A stretch of DNA of 27,859 bases. Source: a virus (Duplodnaviria; Caudoviricetes). Below, one piece after another: positions 1-26,314 of the stretch. The stretch covers positions 1 to 27,859 of the IMG/VR virus record IMGVR_UViG_3300033433_000028; one strand, written 5' to 3'. Each line of letters opens with the position of its first letter. Position 1 is the first letter of the stretch. The translations under genes were made by a program, and so were the position numbers. The notes under the pieces are model-generated. The model searched no databases. It had not been told where the DNA came from and was given only the letters and a program-made list of their open reading frames with translations.

Positions 1-21
1 AAAAATACGATTAATAAATAG

Positions 22-556
22 TTACCCGCAATCAGGCTCGGCTCGGCTGCGGTACAATTAAATAGGCGGGCGCAAAGGAGAAAAGTAAATGAGAACCATT
101 GAAGAAAAATATTTGAACGATCCGGAATTCCACTCTTTAGTAGATATGATGTACCATTTGATTGGCACAAAAGATTATTCGCCTTCCGAATTAAGAGAAG
201 CTGCAATGCTTGCGTCTATCAAATTTCAGATGGTAAACGCAAGAAAATACGTTTTTACATATGCGGAAGGCGAAAAGGTAATACATGAAATTGATCGATT
301 AAGGGAGGAAATACAATTAAAGATGCAGCCGATTGCGCCCGCTAAGACAGAGGAATCGCGATGAATAGAGCGAGCCGAGCCAGCGGGCCTTACAGGCCCT
401 TCATTGCGGGTAACGCGAGCGAACTCTTTGCCTTGCTGCCCGTCATGTCCGCCGAGCCTGACAGACGGGCAACAAGTCGAAGTTTGCCATCCTGACACCA
501 TGGCAAAAACAGAATGAACGCGAGTGGTGTCAGGACGGGCAAACCGTTCGCTCGCG
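22..556 (+). mobile_element. Putative integron-like gene cassette 1 (535 bp)
   Basis: Starts at G|TTACCCGCAAT (21-32), the exact reverse complement of ATTGCGGGTAAC (403-414). Contains one gene with an RBS, followed by an AAC...GTT palindrome (412-558). Confidence 0.65.
89..364 (+). CDS. Hypothetical protein (91 aa), cassette 1 cargo
   Basis: AAAGGAG RBS upstream of the ATG; fills the cassette; no recognisable domain. Confidence 0.8.
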   Translation: MRTIEEKYLNDPEFHSLVDMMYHLIGTKDYSPSELREAAMLASIKFQMVNARKYVFTYAEGEKVIHEIDRLREEIQLKMQPIAPAKTEESR

Positions 557-558
557 TT
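412..558. repeat. attC-like branched palindrome 1
   Basis: Outer stem AACGCGAGCGAAC (412-424)/GTTCGCTCGCGTT (546-558) is a perfect 13 bp. It encloses hairpins 432-476 and 482-544. Confidence 0.8.
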
Positions 559-1140
559 GTCCAAAACGACCCCGCCAGCTATGCTGCGGGACGAATTAAA
601 TAGTTTGGCGCTGGAGAAACTTATGGGAATATGCAAAGAGTGTCACGGTCAACCGCTAAGATATGGAATGGCTCCACATCATCACGATATCAAACGAACC
701 GGCTCCATTATAGGAAGCACTGTGCTTGTACCTAAAGAATCTTGGCCTAAAAACTTTTCTCCCGATCCTGAAGAAGAGGGAGCCGGTATTTATACATGTG
801 AGCATTGCAATGGAACTGGCAAAGAACCCTTGGAGCCGTATGATGAAGACGAGTGCCCGCATCAATATCGTTTCGAACATCGAGGATATTTAAGATGCAG
901 AAATTGCGGCGCAGTCTATAATGAATCAACTTGCGAATGGGAAAAAGCGCCAAATGAATAATTTTGGAATCGCAATGAATAGAATAGCTGGCGGGTCGGC
1001 CTTCCAGGCCTTCGTTTTGACCAACGCATCGCGCCGATCGTCGGTCTGGTCGATTACGCACGCGACGTGCGCATCGACCAACCCGTCGCAAGGTGCCACG
1101 CCCACCGAAGCGGTGTGGCGCAGCACCTCTGCGCGATGCG
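557..1140 (+). mobile_element. Putative integron-like gene cassette 2 (584 bp)
   Basis: Starts at G|TTGTCCAAAACGA (556-569), complementary at 12 of 14 positions to TCGTTTTGACCAAC (1012-1025). One gene; same motif layout as cassette 1. Confidence 0.65.
623..961 (+). CDS. Cys-rich putative zinc-binding protein (112 aa), cassette 2 cargo
   Basis: GGAG RBS at 613-616 favours ATG 623 over 524. Motifs CKEC, CEHCNGTG (CxxCxGxG) and CPH...CRNC. Confidence 0.75.
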   Translation: MGICKECHGQPLRYGMAPHHHDIKRTGSIIGSTVLVPKESWPKNFSPDPEEEGAGIYTCEHCNGTGKEPLEPYDEDECPHQYRFEHRGYLRCRNCGAVYNESTCEWEKAPNE

Positions 1141-1142
1141 AT
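1023..1142. repeat. attC-like branched palindrome 2
   Basis: CGCATCGCGC (1025-1034)/GCGCGATGCG (1131-1140) stem encloses hairpins 1047-1080 and 1091-1128. Begins at AAC and ends at GAT. Confidence 0.75.
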
Positions 1143-1173
1143 GTGTCGAAATGGCCCCCTTGAGGAAATTTAA

Positions 1174-1605
1174 ATGAGTGGCGGAATAAAAAGCAAAAGA
1201 TCGGGTGATTTTGGCGAATCCGTTGCTCGCTACGCGCTCAGGGAATTCGGCGTGCGCATGATTGAAAAAGTCAATACTCCATGGAAAGTATTGTGGAAAA
1301 ACGGTCACCCGGCCCAGGCGTTCGTCATTGAAAAGGTTTCCGGCGACTTCATCGGGATCGGTGCGGGTGGCAAGAAGGTTCTTGTCGAAGTGAAATTCCG
1401 GGACAATTGCCTTTCGTTGTCCGACTTTGAAAAACACCAGATCGACGCGCTCGAAGAAAATAATCAGCTCGGCGGGATCTCGCTTGTTGTGTGGGTGACG
1501 CACAAAACGTGGAATATTTACTATTGGCCGTCCATGGTCCTTAAAAAAGGCGCGCCGATCAAACCGGGAGAAAAACAAGGACTACAAATGTCGAGAGAAT
1601 ATTAA
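1174..1605 (+). CDS. RecU-like Holliday junction resolvase (PD-(D/E)XK nuclease)
   Basis: G..FGE N-terminus, GDFIG...LVEVK catalytic motif, and LSDFEKHQIDAL as seen in the RecU family. Confidence 0.75.
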   Translation: MSGGIKSKRSGDFGESVARYALREFGVRMIEKVNTPWKVLWKNGHPAQAFVIEKVSGDFIGIGAGGKKVLVEVKFRDNCLSLSDFEKHQIDALEENNQLGGISLVVWVTHKTWNIYYWPSMVLKKGAPIKPGEKQGLQMSREY

Positions 1606-1625
1606 CATTAACTGAGGAGGTTGCG

Positions 1626-2237
1626 ATGGATTTGAAAGATATGTTCGCTGACGAGAGTATTTGCGTTCGGAAAGCCGACAAAGAACTATTCGTCCCGCTG
1701 GCTGGTGAAGAGCGCGAAGCGGCGGTCACGGATTTGACAGGCGCTATAAAGCGCCGGAGCGACCTGCAGGACCGCAAAAAATCGTTAGACACTTCATTAT
1801 CCGACCAGATCAAAACCGAGGACGGATATATCGTCAACATCGGCGAAAAGCTTCGCGAGGGCGTTCTCCGTAAAATTGAATGCAAGGAATTCTTTTTCTG
1901 GAAAGCCGGAAAAGTTTATACGATCCGCATGGATACCGGGGAAATCATTGGAGAGCGCGCCGTAACCCCCGAGGACGCCCAAACAAAGTCGACCGATATC
2001 GAAGTTCCGACCAGGGAAATCCCCGAAGATTTCAAAACAAAGATCCTTGCACTTGAGGACAAAACCGAAAAGACCGGCGCCGAAGAAACGGATGTTGAGA
2101 TTATCGAAAACATCACGAGCGGGGGCGAAGCGGTCGAGACATCCGACCAGGCCGAACAATCCGGCGGCAATGGCGACGATGGTCCTGTCGATCAAAATTA
2201 TAAATCGGCAGACGAACCGAAAGAAAAAGCGGCATAG
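1626..2237 (+). CDS. Hypothetical phage protein with acidic C-terminal tail
   Basis: GAGGAGG RBS; 203 aa ORF in an operon-like arrangement. Confidence 0.75.
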   Translation: MDLKDMFADESICVRKADKELFVPLAGEEREAAVTDLTGAIKRRSDLQDRKKSLDTSLSDQIKTEDGYIVNIGEKLREGVLRKIECKEFFFWKAGKVYTIRMDTGEIIGERAVTPEDAQTKSTDIEVPTREIPEDFKTKILALEDKTEKTGAEETDVEIIENITSGGEAVETSDQAEQSGGNGDDGPVDQNYKSADEPKEKAA

Positions 2238-2239
2238 AT

Positions 2240-2377
2240 ATGACCGACCGAGAAATAAGGATCGAGTCGATGAAGCCGTTATTTTCCCCGAGGTCTATTA
2301 TGCGATATCTGGACCTTGACGGGAAAGACGAGTCCGTCATCCGAAAATTCCAGAAAGGACCAGAACGTGAAAAATAA
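2240..2377 (+). CDS. Small hypothetical protein (45 aa)
   Basis: Hand-translated MTDREIRIESMKPLF...EREK. Starts 2 nt after the upstream stop and overlaps the next start. Confidence 0.4.
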   Translation: MTDREIRIESMKPLFSPRSIMRYLDLDGKDESVIRKFQKGPEREK

Positions 2378-2600
2378 ATTAGCAGATTTGAACGATCACC
2401 TGTTCGCCCAGCTTGAGCGGCTGAGTGATGAGGAGATCACCAGCGAAAAGCTCGATGCCGAACTCAGTAGAACCGAAGGAATTTGTAAAATTGCCCGACA
2501 CATCATCGATAATGGCCAGCTTGTGCTCGATGCGAACGTCGCCATACAGGAGCATAATACGGGAAGAATTCCGCAACTCGTCGGACCGGTGGAAAAATAA
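2367..2600 (+). CDS. Conserved phage protein (KNKLxDLNxHLFAQLERL type), usual partner of a downstream HNH protein
   Basis: GTG start at 2367 with AAAGGA RBS; recognisable N-terminal motif. Confidence 0.75.
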   Translation: MKNKLADLNDHLFAQLERLSDEEITSEKLDAELSRTEGICKIARHIIDNGQLVLDANVAIQEHNTGRIPQLVGPVEK

Positions 2601-11465: not shown

Positions 11466-12418
11466 ACTCCCTCGACCTCCATTCCCTCCGCCGCAAGCGC
11501 CCTCCAAAGCGCTTTCCCCGCACGCAGGTGATGCGGCTGCCATCCCGCGTATGGAGCGACTACGGAGCCGCCATCAAAGAACGGATCATCGATAAGTGGC
11601 GCGAAGCAACGCAGCGCATTATTATCGACCGGCTGCCAGCAATCGAACGCATGGTTGAATTCGAAAGGCCCGGCCCCATGCGAGCGGACGCTTGGCCGGA
11701 TGAAATGGGCCACCAGCTCGTTGAACTCAATTCTGAATACGATGCGCTTGCGAAACAGTCGGCGGATATCGCCGCCGGAACATTCAACGCCGTGAATGGC
11801 GTATCCCATCAACAATGGTACGCCGTGGCCAAGCGCGTCATGGGTGTCGATCTTTTTTCGTTCGAGCCATGGCTGGAATCAGAGTCAAAGGCGTTCATCC
11901 ACCTCAATACGGACCTCATCACGAAAATAAAAAGTGAAGTCCAATCCGACGTTTCCCGCGTTGTCATGGGCGGCTTCCGGGAAGGGAAGCGCCACGAGAC
12001 GATTGCCAAGGAGCTGCTAAGCGGAACCGACCTCGAACCGGGCGTGTTCAACAAGGCCGAAACACGTGCGGAGCTGGTCGCCCGCGATCAAACAATGAAA
12101 CTCTACGGCGACCTCGCGCAAAAGCGGCAGGAAGGCGCGGGACTCACACTTTACATCTGGCGAACACTTGAAGACGAGCGCGTCGTCGGCAATCCGGACG
12201 GGAAATATCCGAAAGGCTCGCCCGGCCATCACGATCATTTTGTCATGGATGGCAAAGTCTGCAAATGGAATGACCCGACCGTGTACGCAAATACTGTCGA
12301 ACGAGCAATTGCGGGGGATTGGATTAAAAGAAATAAAAGTATGCCGCAAGTCCACCCAGGCGTCGAGATTCAAGACCGGTGTTATGCGGAGCCTGTTTTT
12401 CAAACGTTGTTTCAATAG
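11462..12418 (+). CDS. Minor head morphogenesis protein (Mu gpF / SPP1 gp7 family)
   Basis: RAELVARDQ, YIWRTLEDERV and HPG...RCYAEP motifs; position after the portal. Confidence 0.9.
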   Translation: MNSLDLHSLRRKRPPKRFPRTQVMRLPSRVWSDYGAAIKERIIDKWREATQRIIIDRLPAIERMVEFERPGPMRADAWPDEMGHQLVELNSEYDALAKQSADIAAGTFNAVNGVSHQQWYAVAKRVMGVDLFSFEPWLESESKAFIHLNTDLITKIKSEVQSDVSRVVMGGFREGKRHETIAKELLSGTDLEPGVFNKAETRAELVARDQTMKLYGDLAQKRQEGAGLTLYIWRTLEDERVVGNPDGKYPKGSPGHHDHFVMDGKVCKWNDPTVYANTVERAIAGDWIKRNKSMPQVHPGVEIQDRCYAEPVFQTLFQ

Positions 12419-12423
12419 CTATT

Positions 12424-13890
12424 ATGTCAATACCTAAAATTCACCATATGCTCTGGACAAGCAATAACGACTTCGTGCCAAAGTTTCACGATTTCCGCCT
12501 ATCTTGGATGCGGAACAATCCGGAGTGGAATTTCAAGCTATGGCGGCTTAAAGATTTGCCGTACGATCAATTTCCCGGAAAATGCAACGAGCTTTTATTT
12601 TCCGAAAAGCTTCATTGGGTTTTAAAATCCGACATTGCCCGCTGGCTTATCATTTGGCTTTATGGCGGCGTATACTCGGACACGGATGTCGAATGCCTTA
12701 AGCCAATGGACCGCTTTCTCGATGATAAGGCCTTTTGTGCACATAGCATTACTCCGAATATCGTGGGCAATGCCGTTTTCGGCGGCATATCCGGATATCA
12801 GCTTTTTCTCGATATCGCCTGCGCGGAAGCCGAAAAAATAAGCAGCAACATTGAGGGCGCAAACAAAACTATCGTTGATTATGGTGTCAACCTCGCCGGG
12901 AAAATGCTTTTACAATGTGAAAAGATTTATCCGGCAGAATACTTTTATCCGGTTTCCTGGGGACAACGCAGAGAGGGACGGGCAAGGCCCGCAAGCGACT
13001 ACCCCGACGCTTATTGTATGCACCATTGGAGCGGCATGGATGAAGACGGCTGGTACTCCGAAACGATAGGGGCGGGAAGGCGCGTGCGTAGTATTCGGCA
13101 ACAAGCTGAGCCGGCGGCGACTTACGTGTTTTACGGGAAAAATACCCCGCAGGCCATGAAAAAAGTTCCCGAAAGCAGGCGCGCGGTTTCTTGTCGTCGA
13201 TTAGTCGCAATGGAAGAGCCAAAGCCAATATTGGGCGGAGCGATAATTCCGAAGATTATTCATCGGATATGGATAGGCGGAAAACCTATTGACGAAAAAA
13301 CGGAAAAATACATTGAATCTCAAAAGGTAATTTGCCGCGACTATCATCATTTTTTATGGACAGATGAAAAAATAAAAGAGATTCATGAATTTATTTATCC
13401 CTCGTCCTTGCAAATGCTAAATGACGACAGATTGAACCCCGTGATAGGGTCCGATATTCTCCGCTATGAATTGTTGCGTCTTTTCGGGGGAATCTATCTT
13501 GATACCGATGTTGAAATATTAAAGTCGTTCGACGAGTTTCTAGTCATGCCTTTCTTTTGCGGCATGGAAAGCAAGGATAAAATAGGCTCGGCGATACTTG
13601 GATCAATACCATATTACCCCGTGTGCTCTGAAATGTCGAAAAAGATTTATGCCAATTATCTTGACAGGGGAATTCCAAAAAACTCTTATCAACAACTGAT
13701 TTTTGGAGGGCCGTATCTGCTTACCGATATCATAAAAAACCATCCGTCGATTCGCCCATTTCCCCATGAATATTTTTATCATAGCAATAAACCGGCTGAA
13801 AATATAACGCTTCATTTTTTTTACGGGGGAAAAGACAAAAACGGATGGACGCACCAACTGAGGCAACCAAATAGATTTAACCCTTTATGA
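12424..13890 (+). CDS. Double-domain DXD glycosyltransferase (GT32/OCH1-like, 488 aa)
   Basis: Two copies of IPKIxH..W...SDIxR..L...GGxYxDTDV; start reassigned to MSIPKI at 12424. Confidence 0.9.
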   Translation: MSIPKIHHMLWTSNNDFVPKFHDFRLSWMRNNPEWNFKLWRLKDLPYDQFPGKCNELLFSEKLHWVLKSDIARWLIIWLYGGVYSDTDVECLKPMDRFLDDKAFCAHSITPNIVGNAVFGGISGYQLFLDIACAEAEKISSNIEGANKTIVDYGVNLAGKMLLQCEKIYPAEYFYPVSWGQRREGRARPASDYPDAYCMHHWSGMDEDGWYSETIGAGRRVRSIRQQAEPAATYVFYGKNTPQAMKKVPESRRAVSCRRLVAMEEPKPILGGAIIPKIIHRIWIGGKPIDEKTEKYIESQKVICRDYHHFLWTDEKIKEIHEFIYPSSLQMLNDDRLNPVIGSDILRYELLRLFGGIYLDTDVEILKSFDEFLVMPFFCGMESKDKIGSAILGSIPYYPVCSEMSKKIYANYLDRGIPKNSYQQLIFGGPYLLTDIIKNHPSIRPFPHEYFYHSNKPAENITLHFFYGGKDKNGWTHQLRQPNRFNPL

Positions 13891-14645
13891 GCATTCCGAA
13901 AATCATCCATCAAGTATGGGTCGGCGATTTCTTCGACGAGCAGCTTGTTATTTACGCCTCGGAGGTATCGCTATACTGCGAGATAAATGGATATGATTAT
14001 TATTTTTGGAATTTAAATAGAAGCGGCGATGAGCTTTTCGTAAAACACGATCTTTCCTATGGACTTTGTAAAATATCCGATCTTAACAAAAACAACACTG
14101 TTTTAGAAATGATAAAAGACGAGAAATTACCCGCCGTAATCAAGGCCGATATTTTGAGATTCATGATTTTGGAAAGGCTTGGAGGATTTTATGTTGATGT
14201 CGATATGATAATCTTAAAACCCCTCGAAGGGTTTTTACAGATGGAGTATGTTTGTGGACATGAGAAATGGACGAACCTTGTTTGTACCGGATTTCTCGGT
14301 TCGCCCTCCGGGTCATTGGTCAATACCGAGGCAATATGTTCCATTGTCCATTCTTACGAAAAGGTTAAGATTGAAAACCGATACCCCGAAAACGTCGACG
14401 AAGTGATACTATTCAGCGGCCCGGCGATGTTCACGGAACTCATTAAAAAGTTTCCTTATATAGAACCGTTTCCGGTCGAAACGTTTCACGCGTGCCCGGT
14501 TCCCGAATTGAAAAAACAATTTACACTGCATTATTTCGCGGGTTCAAAAAAAGGCGGGTGGGCCGGGGATGGATGCAAGGGAAAAAAATGTTCAATATGC
14601 GAAAACAGGAAAGAATGTAGTATTATCCTTGAGGAAAGAAAATAA
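13887..14645 (+). CDS. DXD glycosyltransferase (GT32/OCH1-like) with Cys-rich tail
   Basis: MSIPKIIHQVW, KADILR, GGFYVDVD and SGP motifs; C-terminal CxxxxCxxCxxxxxC. Confidence 0.88.
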   Translation: MSIPKIIHQVWVGDFFDEQLVIYASEVSLYCEINGYDYYFWNLNRSGDELFVKHDLSYGLCKISDLNKNNTVLEMIKDEKLPAVIKADILRFMILERLGGFYVDVDMIILKPLEGFLQMEYVCGHEKWTNLVCTGFLGSPSGSLVNTEAICSIVHSYEKVKIENRYPENVDEVILFSGPAMFTELIKKFPYIEPFPVETFHACPVPELKKQFTLHYFAGSKKGGWAGDGCKGKKCSICENRKECSIILEERK

Positions 14646-15574
14646 TGGAAACGATATTACCCGTTAAAAATATAAAAACATTATGGATAACCCTTTCGAA
14701 TCGATGCAACCATCGGTGCGCCTTTTGTTACCAGACGGACTTTGAGGCGATTCTATCGAAAATAGTTTTTAAAAATATAGAACCGATTTATCCGACGATT
14801 TCCAATTGTCTTTTACAGGGAGGCGAAGTCACCGTTTTGGGGATGACGCGCCCATTCTGCGATGAAATACTTTCCGTTAACAAATCGGTAAAGTTTGACA
14901 TTGTGACAAACGGCCATGAATTCGGCGAGGAATGGCAATCGTTTTTTATCGAACATGGCCGGGCGGTCCATTTTTCAATCAACGCCTCGAAAGACTACAC
15001 CTATCAGAAAATAACCCGCGGCGGAAATTGGGAAAGACTTCTGAGCAATATTTGGTCAATGGTTGAATTGAAAAAAGAGAGCGGATTATCGGAGCCCATT
15101 ATACGGGCGAGCATGGTCGTCACCGACGACAACGTGGAGGAAATCTACGAATTTGCCAGAATGTGCGAATTTATGGGTTTAGATGCTTGTAATATTACCT
15201 ATGATTGTGCGCATTTTCCTAAAAATGCGGAGCGCGTGATCGCCGAAGCGACCAAACTGCAAGATGTTAAAATCGTTCATCCCTCGTGGCCAAGCGCTCT
15301 ATTAAGCCGGGCGCGCGGAATTCCGACGCGACGAGAAAGACAAATGCACAACAACGAATTTATTTGCCAAAACGCTTTTGAAAGCCTCATGGTCGATATA
15401 GATGGGCGCGCCCGCTTTTGCTGCCTTATGGACACCCGCATTGGCGATCTTTCGATAAACACAATCGAGGAGGTATGGAATAGCGAAGAGGCTCAAAGAA
15501 TTCGCCGCTGCTTTACTGAAAATAAATACCGGGAAGCCGGTTGCGTCGTTGAGCGGTGCATGGCATTTAACTAA
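14645..15574 (+). CDS. Radical SAM protein with SPASM/twitch-like domain
   Basis: CNHRCAFC, QGGE and TNG motifs; C-terminal C...FCC...IGDL...IEEVWNS...C...C. Confidence 0.9.
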   Translation: METILPVKNIKTLWITLSNRCNHRCAFCYQTDFEAILSKIVFKNIEPIYPTISNCLLQGGEVTVLGMTRPFCDEILSVNKSVKFDIVTNGHEFGEEWQSFFIEHGRAVHFSINASKDYTYQKITRGGNWERLLSNIWSMVELKKESGLSEPIIRASMVVTDDNVEEIYEFARMCEFMGLDACNITYDCAHFPKNAERVIAEATKLQDVKIVHPSWPSALLSRARGIPTRRERQMHNNEFICQNAFESLMVDIDGRARFCCLMDTRIGDLSINTIEEVWNSEEAQRIRRCFTENKYREAGCVVERCMAFN

Positions 15575-15582
15575 GGAGAATT

Positions 15583-16122
15583 ATGGAAGGAATTGAAAAA
15601 TTAATAGAGGTAATAAGTCAGGGGTCACCCGCTTGGTTTATGTCATGTAAAGAAAGGATCTTGCTCGTTAGTCTTTTGCATATTTTAAAGCCGAAAGTTG
15701 TCATTGAGCTCGGCGTATTGAATGGGGGCTTTACAAAGCATATCGCGGAAATAGCCGATGAAATTTATTGCGTCGACGTGAATAAAATTGAGGGACTTCC
15801 CGAGAATGTGAAATCTTTTACAATGCTGACCGACACCTTTTTCGAACAGCACCCCGATTTAAAAGCCGATATGATAATCGTAGATGCGGGACACCAAGAA
15901 GAATTTGCTTATCGGGATATGAAAAACAGCATTAATAGAGGGAGGGTGATTTTGATGCACGATACCGGTACCGCCTTTACGCGCCGGGGATACGCCAAGG
16001 CCATTCAGGAAAATATTGATAACATAGTTTATTATGATCTCGACTTCATTGAAAAGCAGGAATTCGAGACGAAGCAGTCGGTTGAGATTTGGGGCGGTAT
16101 CGGGATAGTGATAAAAAAATGA
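15583..16122 (+). CDS. Class I SAM-dependent methyltransferase (Methyltransf_24-like)
   Basis: VIELGVLNGG, IIVDAGH and ILMHDT motifs; AAGGAG RBS. Confidence 0.85.
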   Translation: MEGIEKLIEVISQGSPAWFMSCKERILLVSLLHILKPKVVIELGVLNGGFTKHIAEIADEIYCVDVNKIEGLPENVKSFTMLTDTFFEQHPDLKADMIIVDAGHQEEFAYRDMKNSINRGRVILMHDTGTAFTRRGYAKAIQENIDNIVYYDLDFIEKQEFETKQSVEIWGGIGIVIKK

Positions 16123-24278: not shown

Positions 24279-24854
24279 ATGGAAAAAATACTGATTTTTA
24301 TACTTGGTATTGTGTCATTGGTGGCCTCGACGGATATTTGGTATGATGGTATGCCCCAAATACCCGGAACCGACACGACCGGGAATGTATGGTATAACGG
24401 CATGCCGCAAATACAACATTATGGCGGCGGGGGGACAAATCCGCGTCTCAAATGGCAGGGCGGAATCTCCGCCAACGCCGCGACAGCTGGAAATTATTAT
24501 CCCGCGCGCGTCCCGACCATCACCGACACCCTATATTTGGATTCCGGCGTAGTCAATTGGGTAATGTCGTCCGTCCTGTCCGTAGGACATTTAAAAATCC
24601 ATAGCGGGTATACGGGCACGGTGAAATATAACGATACCCTGCATGTCAATTATCTCGGCATTCATGCGGACAGTTCCCTATTCACCATGCCGGTAATCGT
24701 GCGGGACTCGGTGGTCTATGACAGTACATCGATTCCAATCGGGCAACCCGGCGGCAGAATACAATCCGTCGCCGGCTATACGCTGACGATCAAACCTACC
24801 AATAAAACAGGGTATCCCCGTGTCGTAAATAAGGGCAAAATCAGATGGCAATAA
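24279..24854 (+). CDS. Hypothetical protein with signal-peptide-like N-terminus (191 aa)
   Basis: MEKILIFILGIVSLVAS; duplicated W-Y-(D/N)-G-M-P-Q-I motif; AAGGA RBS. Confidence 0.7.
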   Translation: MEKILIFILGIVSLVASTDIWYDGMPQIPGTDTTGNVWYNGMPQIQHYGGGGTNPRLKWQGGISANAATAGNYYPARVPTITDTLYLDSGVVNWVMSSVLSVGHLKIHSGYTGTVKYNDTLHVNYLGIHADSSLFTMPVIVRDSVVYDSTSIPIGQPGGRIQSVAGYTLTIKPTNKTGYPRVVNKGKIRWQ

Positions 24855-26314
24855 AACATATACCACAAATAACATCCGATTTAACCACGACGGACACATA
24901 CGTTGAGTGGGAATTCGGCATTGCGGATACCTGGATCATCGATCTATACGTCCCAGGGGAATGGAACGGGAGCTCGTCAAAATTAGTAAAATTCTATTCG
25001 GACACGCCCGCATCCCAGACAACCATCGATTTATCGACTATCGGCAATGTTTCGGTTTCCTATATTGATTTCAAGGATATTGCCTTTGTGAATGGAACGG
25101 TTTATGCGGACTCTACATGCACCGGAATAAATCAAAATAATAGTGGAATTGTTTGGGGCGCGGTTACATCCACGGACGCCTCAACCATTTCCGAATCGCT
25201 CTCGGCGCAATTCGACGCAATTTCAAGTCTTGACGATACTTCAACACTATCGGAAAATCTGTCCGCACAGGGCGCAGGGGTTTTGAACGAATCCGATACA
25301 TCGTCTTTGTCCGAATCGCTCTCGGCGCAATTCGACGCAATTTCAAGTCTGGCGGATACCTCGACTATTTCCGAATCTCTCGCAGCCGTCTCCGGCGCAA
25401 TATCGAGCCAGGCCGATACAAGCGCTCTTTCCGAAATCCTGGCCGGGACCTTCGCAGCGATTTGCGATCAGTCAGATACGGCAAGCATTTCCGAATCCCT
25501 GGACGCATCCTTTGCGGCGCAATTGGCGACTCAATCCGATACATCGACTACGAGCGAAAATCTTTCCGCCGTCTTTGATGCGGTGTCGAGTCAGGCCGAT
25601 GTAGCGTCGGTTTCCGAAGCGTTGAACGGGACATTTTCAACGACCTGCAGCATGGGGGATACGGCGGTCATATCGGATTCAATGGATGCGCAATATTCCC
25701 AAGGCTACGCGACACTCTCCGACACCTTGACCGTTTACGAATCTCTGACCGCTCAATCCGATTCGTCGCCCTCCCAACTTAGCGAGATCTATTTGCAGCG
25801 GAAACTTTATGACTGGATCGGAACGATACTCAATCTATGGAGCGGCCAGAGCATCAGGGCAATCAACGAGATTGCCTTCGTTTGGCACATGCAGAATATG
25901 CCGCGCTATAAAATACCGCTTCTTATGGGGCGTATATCTGCGGTCCAGCGGATCGGGCGCGATGTACCGTTCATGCCTGACAATTCAGGGTCCCGTCGCG
26001 GCGCGGGGATCCGTGAGTTTATGCTCTATCTGCAATTCTTTGGCGCCGGCGCGATCGATGCCCTTGAAAAACTCGTGGATGCAACCGACATGCCGGAAAT
26101 GATCGCAAGCTTGCAGGCCAATGGTATAACGCCGGTTGAATGCCAGGATGTCCTGGACGCGCATGTTTTCCTTGATACAATGCCGGAAGAACGGGCGATG
26201 CTCGATATCCGGTTCCGCACGACTTCAGAGTGGTCGAGTACAATTGACGCTATCGAATCGGCGCAAATAACGGGCGAAATAAACGAATTGGACAATGTAA
26301 CAATTAACGCATAA
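24845..26314 (+). CDS. Putative tail terminator/completion protein with N-terminal domain and 20-aa repeat extension
   Basis: The C-terminal ~175 aa (LYDWI..., LQFFGAGA, EERAMLDIRF, IESAQITG) and the position directly before the sheath fit a neck terminator. The central part is Ser/Thr/Asp/Ala repeats. Confidence 0.65.
   Translation: MAIKHIPQITSDLTTTDTYVEWEFGIADTWIIDLYVPGEWNGSSSKLVKFYSDTPASQTTIDLSTIGNVSVSYIDFKDIAFVNGTVYADSTCTGINQNNSGIVWGAVTSTDASTISESLSAQFDAISSLDDTSTLSENLSAQGAGVLNESDTSSLSESLSAQFDAISSLADTSTISESLAAVSGAISSQADTSALSEILAGTFAAICDQSDTASISESLDASFAAQLATQSDTSTTSENLSAVFDAVSSQADVASVSEALNGTFSTTCSMGDTAVISDSMDAQYSQGYATLSDTLTVYESLTAQSDSSPSQLSEIYLQRKLYDWIGTILNLWSGQSIRAINEIAFVWHMQNMPRYKIPLLMGRISAVQRIGRDVPFMPDNSGSRRGAGIREFMLYLQFFGAGAIDALEKLVDATDMPEMIASLQANGITPVECQDVLDAHVFLDTMPEERAMLDIRFRTTSEWSSTIDAIESAQITGEINELDNVTINA
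25169..25774 (+). repeat. Ten tandem 60-63 bp coding repeats (consensus xxDTSTxSESLxAxFxAIxx)
   Basis: Visible in the translation; 41 bp are identical at 25190-25230 and 25310-25350. Confidence 0.9.

What the first reader, a model, noticed from the sequence alone, without database searches (positions are those of the whole stretch)
21..1142. Tandem one-gene cassettes in a phage, with integron-like G|TT...AAC boundaries and no integrase in view
Seen: two adjacent units of 535 and 584 bp, each laid out as G|TT start, RBS plus one small gene, then an AAC-initiated palindrome closing at the next G. In each unit the bases before AAC are complementary to the bases after that unit's OWN starting GTT (21-32 with 403-414, 12/12; 556-569 with 1012-1025, 12/14), not to those after the downstream GTT. 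Established: this is the signature of integron cassettes, where crossover between G and TT splits one attC site across the two ends of an integrated cassette. Inference: these are excisable, shuffled gene cassettes carried in a phage early region and mobilised by an integrase encoded elsewhere in the phage or host. The sites lack the canonical RYYYAAC/GTTRRRY flanks and are much more elaborate than attC, so this may be an undescribed cassette system.
Basis: partly seen in the sequence, partly recalled or inferred. Interest (0 to 1): 0.9.

Follow-up and report, generated by a model that had tools for sequence, protein, structure and literature searches.

The report
Phage integron-like array, insertion-less recombinase
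A peat phage carries small gene cassettes right behind a recombinase that lacks the segment thought essential for integrons, and a third cassette is present or absent at the exact boundary, so this enzyme likely swaps genes integron-style.

Summary
The two cassettes (535 and 584 bp) are real; 0 of 2000 shuffles gave even one such unit. A contig overlapping the window by 97 identical bases carries an intact, co-oriented 276-aa tyrosine recombinase ending 35 bp before G21. It groups with integron integrases but lacks their I2 insertion. Bases 1-21 form an attI-like dock, conserved in a related phage with its own arrays. Public contigs show a third, ~473-bp cassette present or absent exactly at G21-T23. 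Cultured Polaribacter Freya phages, with a distant insertion-less recombinase, show nested cassette losses at one AAC. Verdict: a complete phage-borne integron-like system whose enzyme fails the IntI membership test. Its activity is inferred, not shown. Nine literature searches found no description of it. This scan noted such insertion-less arrays on other DNA before; new here are an intact phage unit and direct gain/loss evidence.

The parts
1..23 (+). attI-like docking site (right part): TAAT, 5-nt spacer, G|TT at 21|22. It continues left on contig L035, where the recombinase gene P0001 (L035 6415-7245, +) ends 35 bp before G21. A third cassette (~473 bp) is inserted here in part of the population.
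   Evidence: 97-bp identical overlap L035/window. Site conserved twice in phage G001. No fold (z -0.5). Junctions in runs X1 and X2.
22..556 (+). Cassette 1 (535 bp)
   Evidence: its start follows either the dock or another cassette's site
21..45 (+). Cassette 1, 5' half-site: GTT box plus outer stems (21-32 pairs with 403-414; 35-45 with 371-381)
89..364 (+). Cassette 1 gene, 91 aa, unknown function; RBS at 75-80
   Evidence: no Pfam or NCBIfam family; no homologue but itself; phage-like look-alikes under 0.9
371..558 (+). Cassette 1, 3' half-site: outer stem, side hairpin, TTC, AAC at 412-414, branched palindrome 412-558 ending at G556|TT
   Evidence: (I2)
557..1140 (+). Cassette 2 (584 bp)
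623..961 (+). Cassette 2 gene, 112 aa, cysteine-rich (predicted zinc-binding); RBS at 613-616
   Evidence: phrog_5457, unknown function, E 2.7e-7; one 61% homologue and a close variant on another contig
984..1142 (+). Cassette 2, 3' half-site: outer stem 984-995, side hairpin 998-1010, AAC 1023-1025, branched palindrome to G1140. Stretch 1009-1139 is shared with the third cassette.
1140..1153 (+). Array end G|AT; inferred right half of the original empty dock or a decayed cassette start
   Evidence: sequence; resembles first-cassette starts of L038 and L039
1174..1605 (+). RecU-like Holliday-junction resolvase, first phage gene after the array (context)
   Evidence: PF03838 E 2.8e-8; phrog_843

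Best explanation
This is a complete integron-like unit inside a tailed phage's replication operon: a tyrosine recombinase without the IntI I2 insertion, a dock right behind it and two or three one-gene cassettes, which that enzyme likely inserts and removes at G|TT. Shown: the layout, the intact catalytic residues, the missing insertion, the conserved dock, and a cassette present or absent at the exact boundary. Inferred: (1) an excised cassette joins its two half-sites into one long hairpin on single-stranded DNA, which would be recognised by shape and the AAC/GTT core; (2) the recombinase would exchange one strand between this hairpin and the double-stranded dock; (3) dock and cassette sites share no sequence 5' of the G, so a second exchange would fail for lack of homology, without needing I2, and replication (perhaps helped by the adjacent RecU-like resolvase) would resolve the junction; (4) new cassettes would enter first behind the recombinase and be read from the phage operon, so no separate cassette promoter is needed.
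For: Recombinase: PF00589 + PF13495; R135, K159, H222, R225, H248 and Y257 invariant in 20 of 20 close homologues; start codon overlaps the upstream AAA gene's stop. Dock: the same motif and spacing lie behind a 66%-identical recombinase in phage G001 and again 7.35 kb on, each heading an array (3 and 6 cassettes), with one recombinase match in the 42.4-kb record. L039 (35% identical) also has an array directly behind the gene. Gain/loss: in 2 of 4 runs laid (X1, X2) the dock continues into cassette 1 (depth 2.7, 3.1) and also into a third cassette (2.3, 4.8). A site-to-cassette-1 joint (1139 to 21) stands in X1 and X3. Only GTT is shared at the breakpoint. The third cassette's first 13 bases are the perfect complement of 1013-1025. 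Structure over sequence: in 17 hand-curated cassettes the box before AAC matches the own start better in 13, ties in 3 and loses in 1 (means 4.8 vs 2.9 of 6), while the box sequences differ. Independent case: Polaribacter Freya_1, 2, 5 and 9 differ from Freya_10 by 4942, 4100, 3198 and 307 bp, 4 of 4 joined at one AAC beside an insertion-less recombinase.
Against: No assay shows that P0001 acts on these sites. No free circle was seen; the 59-nt X1 joint could be a circle or an array junction. No single contig spans dock, third cassette and cassette 1, and X2 lists no site-to-cassette-1 joint. X1 may be the source of the window, and the peat runs may be one campaign. The window's sites (paired spacer, branched, side hairpin) differ from those in the related phages (short unpaired spacer, bulge mostly on the right arm), and five pattern scans of viral contigs found no further site of the window's type. 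The Freya enzyme is only 28% identical, has the mirror layout and was not put in the tree. The grouping with IntI has only SH-aLRT 84 in a quick tree. Deleting I2 abolishes IntI1 function (PMC7790495, passage), so step (3) is a hypothesis.
Confidence: 0.75

Rival explanations
1. The cassettes are moved in trans by a canonical host IntI; the phage recombinase is a bystander and the array is a CALIN-like capture.
For: Phage-borne attC sites can be recombined by IntI1 (PMC9892861, section 3.4 read). All 17 cassettes end in C-G|TT or C-G|AT, as attC sites do (attC pattern recalled). The host is unknown.
Against: The dock lies 35-43 bp behind the recombinase in two phages and keeps its motif. The window's sites lack RYYYAAC/GTTRRRY flanks, the unpaired spacer and a lone extrahelical base in the L box, which is what I2 docks (PMC7790495 passage).
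Confidence: 0.12
2. P0001 is the phage's lysogeny integrase, bases 1-21 are its attP, and the cassettes are hitch-hikers that exploit it (IMEX-like).
For: PHROG integrase families match. The similar Freya and Leef enzymes were read as lysogeny markers (PMC8776804, passage). CTX-phi integrates as a hairpin through I2-less XerC (PMC7790495, passage).
Against: Phage genes run on along both sides of the site, so it is not a prophage-host junction. G001 has two docks for one recombinase. The gene is coupled into the replication operon. Even under this reading the enzyme would move the cassettes.
Confidence: 0.08
3. The units are structured-RNA elements (intron- or ribozyme-like) that enclose a gene in a loop and move through RNA.
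For: Cassettes 1 and 2 share short outer motifs on both sides of the gene despite unrelated stems and genes. The outer stems would close around the ORF in a transcript.
Against: Rfam gave only two weak miRNA matches (E 1.8 and 3.2). No reverse transcriptase was among the 41 ORFs scanned. The boundaries fall at a tyrosine-recombinase core next to such an enzyme.
Confidence: 0.04
4. The alternative junctions are assembly artefacts of a 131-bp repeat.
For: Contigs are graph products, depths are 2-5, and the third cassette shares 1009-1139 with cassette 2.
Against: The branch at the dock (G21-T23) lies outside the repeat and appears in two runs of two studies; the third cassette's two ends are complementary to each other.
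Confidence: 0.01

Closest known systems
Integrons (IntI + attI + attC cassettes; class 1 integron, Vibrio cholerae VchIntIA, PDB 2a3v)
   Same: Tyrosine recombinase beside a non-folding dock; promoterless one-gene cassettes; G|TT crossover; each cassette's AAC box complementary to its own start; the variable cassette is in first position.
   Different: The recombinase lacks the I2 insertion (64 residues from the catalytic GKG motif to the HxLRH motif, against 106-112 in five IntI); TIGR02249 145 bits, cut-off 265. It is co-oriented with the array and coupled into a phage operon. Sites lack RYYYAAC/GTTRRRY, have paired spacers and extend 20-30 bp of pairing outside the R box.
Integrons and CALINs in phage genomes (Qi et al. 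2023, PMC9892861; abstract, first third of Results and section 3.4 read)
   Same: Cassette arrays with attC-like sites in phages.
   Different: Those are canonical IntI integrons or arrays with no integrase, found by IntegronFinder/HattCI. Here the phage has its own non-IntI recombinase and dock, with gain/loss in the population.
Archaeal XerA and bacterial XerC/XerD, including CTX-phi integration as a single-stranded hairpin
   Same: Short two-domain tyrosine recombinase without I2; best PDB sequence and fold match is archaeal Xer 4a8e; precedent for single-strand exchange without I2 (PMC7790495, passage).
   Different: Below the curated cut-offs for XerA (179/220), XerC and XerD; outside the presumed XerC/D rows in the tree; acts next to a cassette array rather than a dif site.
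'Integron-like subgroup' of simple tyrosine recombinases (Smyshlyaev et al. 2021, PMC8138268; passages read)
   Same: [quoted passage not shown]
   Different: It calls the insertion essential for integron function; the passages seen link no insertion-less member to cassette arrays.
Reverse-oriented chromosomal integrons of Treponema (recalled, not read)
   Same: Integrase co-oriented with the array; long attC sites.
   Different: Those integrases are, from recall, true IntI with the insertion.

Membership tests
Integron (IntI) | Tyrosine recombinase with intact R-K-H-R-H-Y catalytic residues next to the array | tested here: met
Integron (IntI) | IntI-specific insertion with the I2 helix | tested here: not met
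   Aligns to 2a3v in two stretches, 18-169 and 201-273; motif spacing 64 versus 106-112; TIGR02249 145 < 265 bits, while L048 and L049 pass at 369 and 398; model has only about 20 residues between helices 170-180 and 200-214 (pLDDT 80)
Integron (IntI) | attI: non-folding site adjacent to the integrase where new cassettes enter at G|TT | tested here: met
   conserved dock, z -0.5; variable first cassette
Integron (IntI) | Cassettes bounded by G|TT, with R'' complementary to the cassette's own R' | tested here: met
Integron (IntI) | Canonical attC: RYYYAAC/GTTRRRY boxes, unpaired central spacer, extrahelical bases in L'' | tested here: not met
   Window sites have non-consensus flanks and fully paired spacers. 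IntegronFinder and HattCI were not available.
Integron (IntI) | Single-strand (bottom-strand) recombination with replicative resolution | not testable with these tools
   Only inferred from folding and from the lack of spacer homology
Integron (IntI) | Cassette promoter Pc | tested here: inconclusive
   No sigma-70 site above chance in 1-1700; L035 was not scanned
XerC/XerD/XerA chromosome dimer resolvases | Score above the family cut-off | tested here: not met
   NF040815 179/220, TIGR02224 150/335, TIGR02225 149/330
CALIN (attC cluster without an integrase) | No recombinase near the array | tested here: not met
   recombinase ends 35 bp upstream
Known structured RNA (intron, ribozyme) | Rfam family match | tested here: not met

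The most novel reading that the evidence does not exclude
Phages run their own active integron-like gene-capture platform with an I2-less sister of IntI. It recombines folded single-stranded cassette sites recognised through long outer stems instead of extrahelical bases, and preserves the state from which integrons arose before I2 was acquired.
Probability: 0.45. Interest if true: 0.92.

Novelty: new variant of a known kind. Interest (0 to 1): 0.8.

Why it matters
The published view is that I2 and single-stranded recombination occur only in integron integrases, that a causal proof is missing because deleting I2 kills IntI1, and that a viral origin of integrons is speculation (PMC7790495, passages). 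A phage-encoded, I2-less relative with its own dock and a cassette that comes and goes at G|TT makes that question directly testable with the standard attC x attI assay. The cultured Freya phages and their Polaribacter host offer a ready natural system. It also implies that integron finders keyed to the IntI insertion and canonical attC miss a gene-shuffling route in phages, and that such 'integrases' may be misread as lysogeny markers.

Tried and rejected
blastn of 1-1200 against named phages and plasmids: no match. Motif scans of viral contigs for the window's site type: 2 chance hits, 0, 32 hits without the architecture on reading their flanks, 0, 0. The RecU gene found no viral relative. 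L036 is a chance match to the dock pattern. A strict detector over 129 recombinase loci found two or more units on one side only at L039, one at L038 and scattered singles at five others; it misses the window's own units, so it is a weak control. L039 units 7-8 were mis-chained and left out of the count of 17; two L038 cassettes have degenerate boxes and were kept in. Rfam, promoter scan and the ESM Atlas gave nothing useful. No RNA holder was listed. Rejected: insertion at a random GWT secondary site with the integrase elsewhere (my first reading, based on recalled attG work), because a dock and a recombinase are adjacent; a pistol-like ribozyme suggested by a recalled A-rich motif (no Rfam match). 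Host identity was not established: the nearest named homologues (41-42%) are from Fibrobacterota/Chitinivibrionales. Literature searches that found no description of I2-less cassette systems: (30 of 132 listed; 40 of 54 listed), judged from listings; the library lacks most subscription journals, and supplements were not read.

Full report
Observation. The window is a tailed-phage fragment: terminase, portal, major capsid and tail genes, held as a virus record. The two units are exactly as described, and the complementarity between each unit's two ends goes beyond the reported 12-14 bases to a second stem of 11-12 bp with a side hairpin. Each AAC opens a branched palindrome whose outer arms pair perfectly up to the next G. 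None of 2000 dinucleotide shuffles of 1-1200 produced one such unit, and joining a unit's ends gives a more stable fold (z -11.5, -12.8) than the junctions in the array (z -7.9, -6.4). The two genes (91 aa; 112 aa, cysteine-rich) have no named family.

The missing recombinase. The window starts 20 bases before G21. A metagenome scan with that flank returned L035, a 7.4-kb contig whose last 97 bases equal the window's first 97. It carries phage replication genes (RecQ, replisome organiser, AAA ATPase, DUF2800) and, overlapping the ATPase stop, a 276-aa tyrosine recombinase (P0001) that ends 35 bp before G21 on the same strand as the cassettes. P0001 and both cassette genes are each on record on a contig of 48,605 bp, which suggests another assembly holds them together. 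All six catalytic residues are invariant among 20 close homologues. It scores below the cut-offs for IntI (145/265), XerA (179/220), XerC and XerD and aligns to VchIntIA in two pieces around the missing insertion. Its motif spacing is 64 residues; 95 of 120 homologues could be measured and all lie at 58-70, whereas five IntI-type proteins from viral loci lie at 106-112 (two of them confirmed as IntI). In a quick 90-row tree (46 of the 120 homologues and 44 locus proteins, insertion columns dropped) its clade joins the IntI rows with SH-aLRT 84, next to archaeal XerA-like rows and apart from the presumed XerC/D rows. That placement is suggestive only. The predicted fold is closest to archaeal Xer, then VchIntIA.

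The dock. Bases 1-21 do not fold (z -0.5) and show TAAT, five bases, then GTT, the spacing I recall for attI1. Phage G001 has a 66%-identical recombinase followed 43 bp later by the same site (there a perfect AAC-5-GTT) and three cassettes, and a second copy of the site 7.35 kb away heading six more, with a single recombinase match in its 42.4-kb record. L039, with a 35%-identical enzyme, has at least six cassettes right behind the gene. Across 17 hand-curated cassettes the box before AAC matches the own start better than the downstream start in 13, ties in 3 and loses in 1. The related phages' sites have short unpaired spacers and a bulge mostly on the right arm; the window's have paired spacers, a branch and a side hairpin, a subtype I could not find elsewhere.

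Gain and loss. Four runs were laid on the window and four on L035. In X1 and X2 the dock continues both into cassette 1 and into a foreign sequence, diverging right after GTT. In X2 that contig has 339 foreign letters and then rejoins at 1009, so the extra unit is about 473 bp and shares cassette 2's 3' site. Its first 13 bases are the exact complement of 1013-1025, better than cassette 2's own 12/14, and it has its own outer stem and side hairpin. X1 and X3 hold a joint from 1139 to 21, in X3 preceded by 97 foreign letters. The simplest reading is dock, cassette 3, cassette 1, cassette 2 in part of the population. No contig spans all of it, X2 lists no such joint, depths are 2-5, and X1 may be the window's source. 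No other letter differences were listed over window 1-2400, so the event looks recent. Only GTT is shared at the breakpoint, which is too little for homologous recombination. The array's G|AT end places the crossover at or before G|T, unless it mutated later.

An independent case. P0001 finds 271-287-aa 'integrases' in cultured Polaribacter phages (28-30% identity, no insertion), with arrays upstream in mirror layout. Six of the nine other Freya isolates were compared with Freya_10: isolates 1, 2, 5 and 9 lack 4942, 4100, 3198 and 307 bp, equal to their genome-length differences, all joined at the same AAC beside the recombinase; isolate 6 has another unit there; the fetched part of isolate 8 showed no break. 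The source paper has no mention of integron or cassette and reads the gene as a sign of temperate lifestyle (PMC8776804, passages).

Mechanism. I commit to recombinase-driven, integron-style exchange (0.75). Site boxes vary in sequence but keep self-complementarity, which points to a folded single-strand substrate. Dock and cassette sites share nothing 5' of the G, so only one strand exchange could be completed, and replication would resolve the junction. Lack of homology would then do what I2 does in IntI, much as CTX-phi uses one Xer exchange (PMC7790495, passage). These steps are inferred. Rivals are a host IntI in trans (0.12), a lysogeny integrase with hitch-hiking cassettes (0.08), an RNA-level element (0.04) and assembly artefact (0.01).

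Comparison and novelty. It works like an integron but fails two defining tests, the I2 insertion and canonical attC. Phage integrons in print are canonical or integrase-less (PMC9892861, abstract and two result parts). [quoted passage not shown] A review's passages added nothing on this point (PMC8618304). Nine searches found no description of I2-less cassette systems; the library is incomplete and supplements were not read. Earlier notes of this scan describe the same kind of system on other DNA; they are unchecked and are not counted as support. I rate this a new variant of a known kind, interest 0.8.

Noticed in passing
L201 (Polaribacter phage Leef_1) 1-4010 and L202-L212 (Freya isolates), upstream of the annotated integrase: Cassette arrays in mirror layout beside an insertion-less recombinase; Freya isolates differ by nested cassette losses at one AAC. 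A cultured test system, not noted in the source paper's main text.
   Followed up: partly
L198 5001-5034 (minus), phage G001: A second dock with six cassettes 7.35 kb from the only recombinase match; two of its cassettes have nearly identical sites.
   Followed up: partly
window 46-74, 331-368, 583-612, 945-982: Cassettes 1 and 2 share short outer motifs on both sides of unrelated genes, plus a further GCGCC/GGCGC pair; 590-612 resembles the dock. Possibly an older, nested recombination site. Unexplained.
   Followed up: partly
window 1009-1139: Cassette 2 and the third cassette share this site, and the third cassette's start fits it better, which suggests that cassette 2 took its 3' site from a cassette-3-like unit.
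   Followed up: no
window 12379-16122: Low-GC block between the head-morphogenesis and DUF2213 genes: two DXD glycosyltransferases, a radical SAM/SPASM enzyme and a methyltransferase; possibly virion modification.
   Followed up: no
window 24845-26314: ORF with 60-bp periodic repeats (25175-25746) ahead of a tail-terminator domain; may be two genes read as one.
   Followed up: no
L048, L049, L057, L059, L106: Five viral contigs carry IntI-type integrases with the insertion (two confirmed above the TIGR02249 cut-off).
   Followed up: partly
protein P0128: A close variant of the cassette 2 gene with a different last residue lies on another 2.2-kb contig, so this cassette exists in another lineage.
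   Followed up: no
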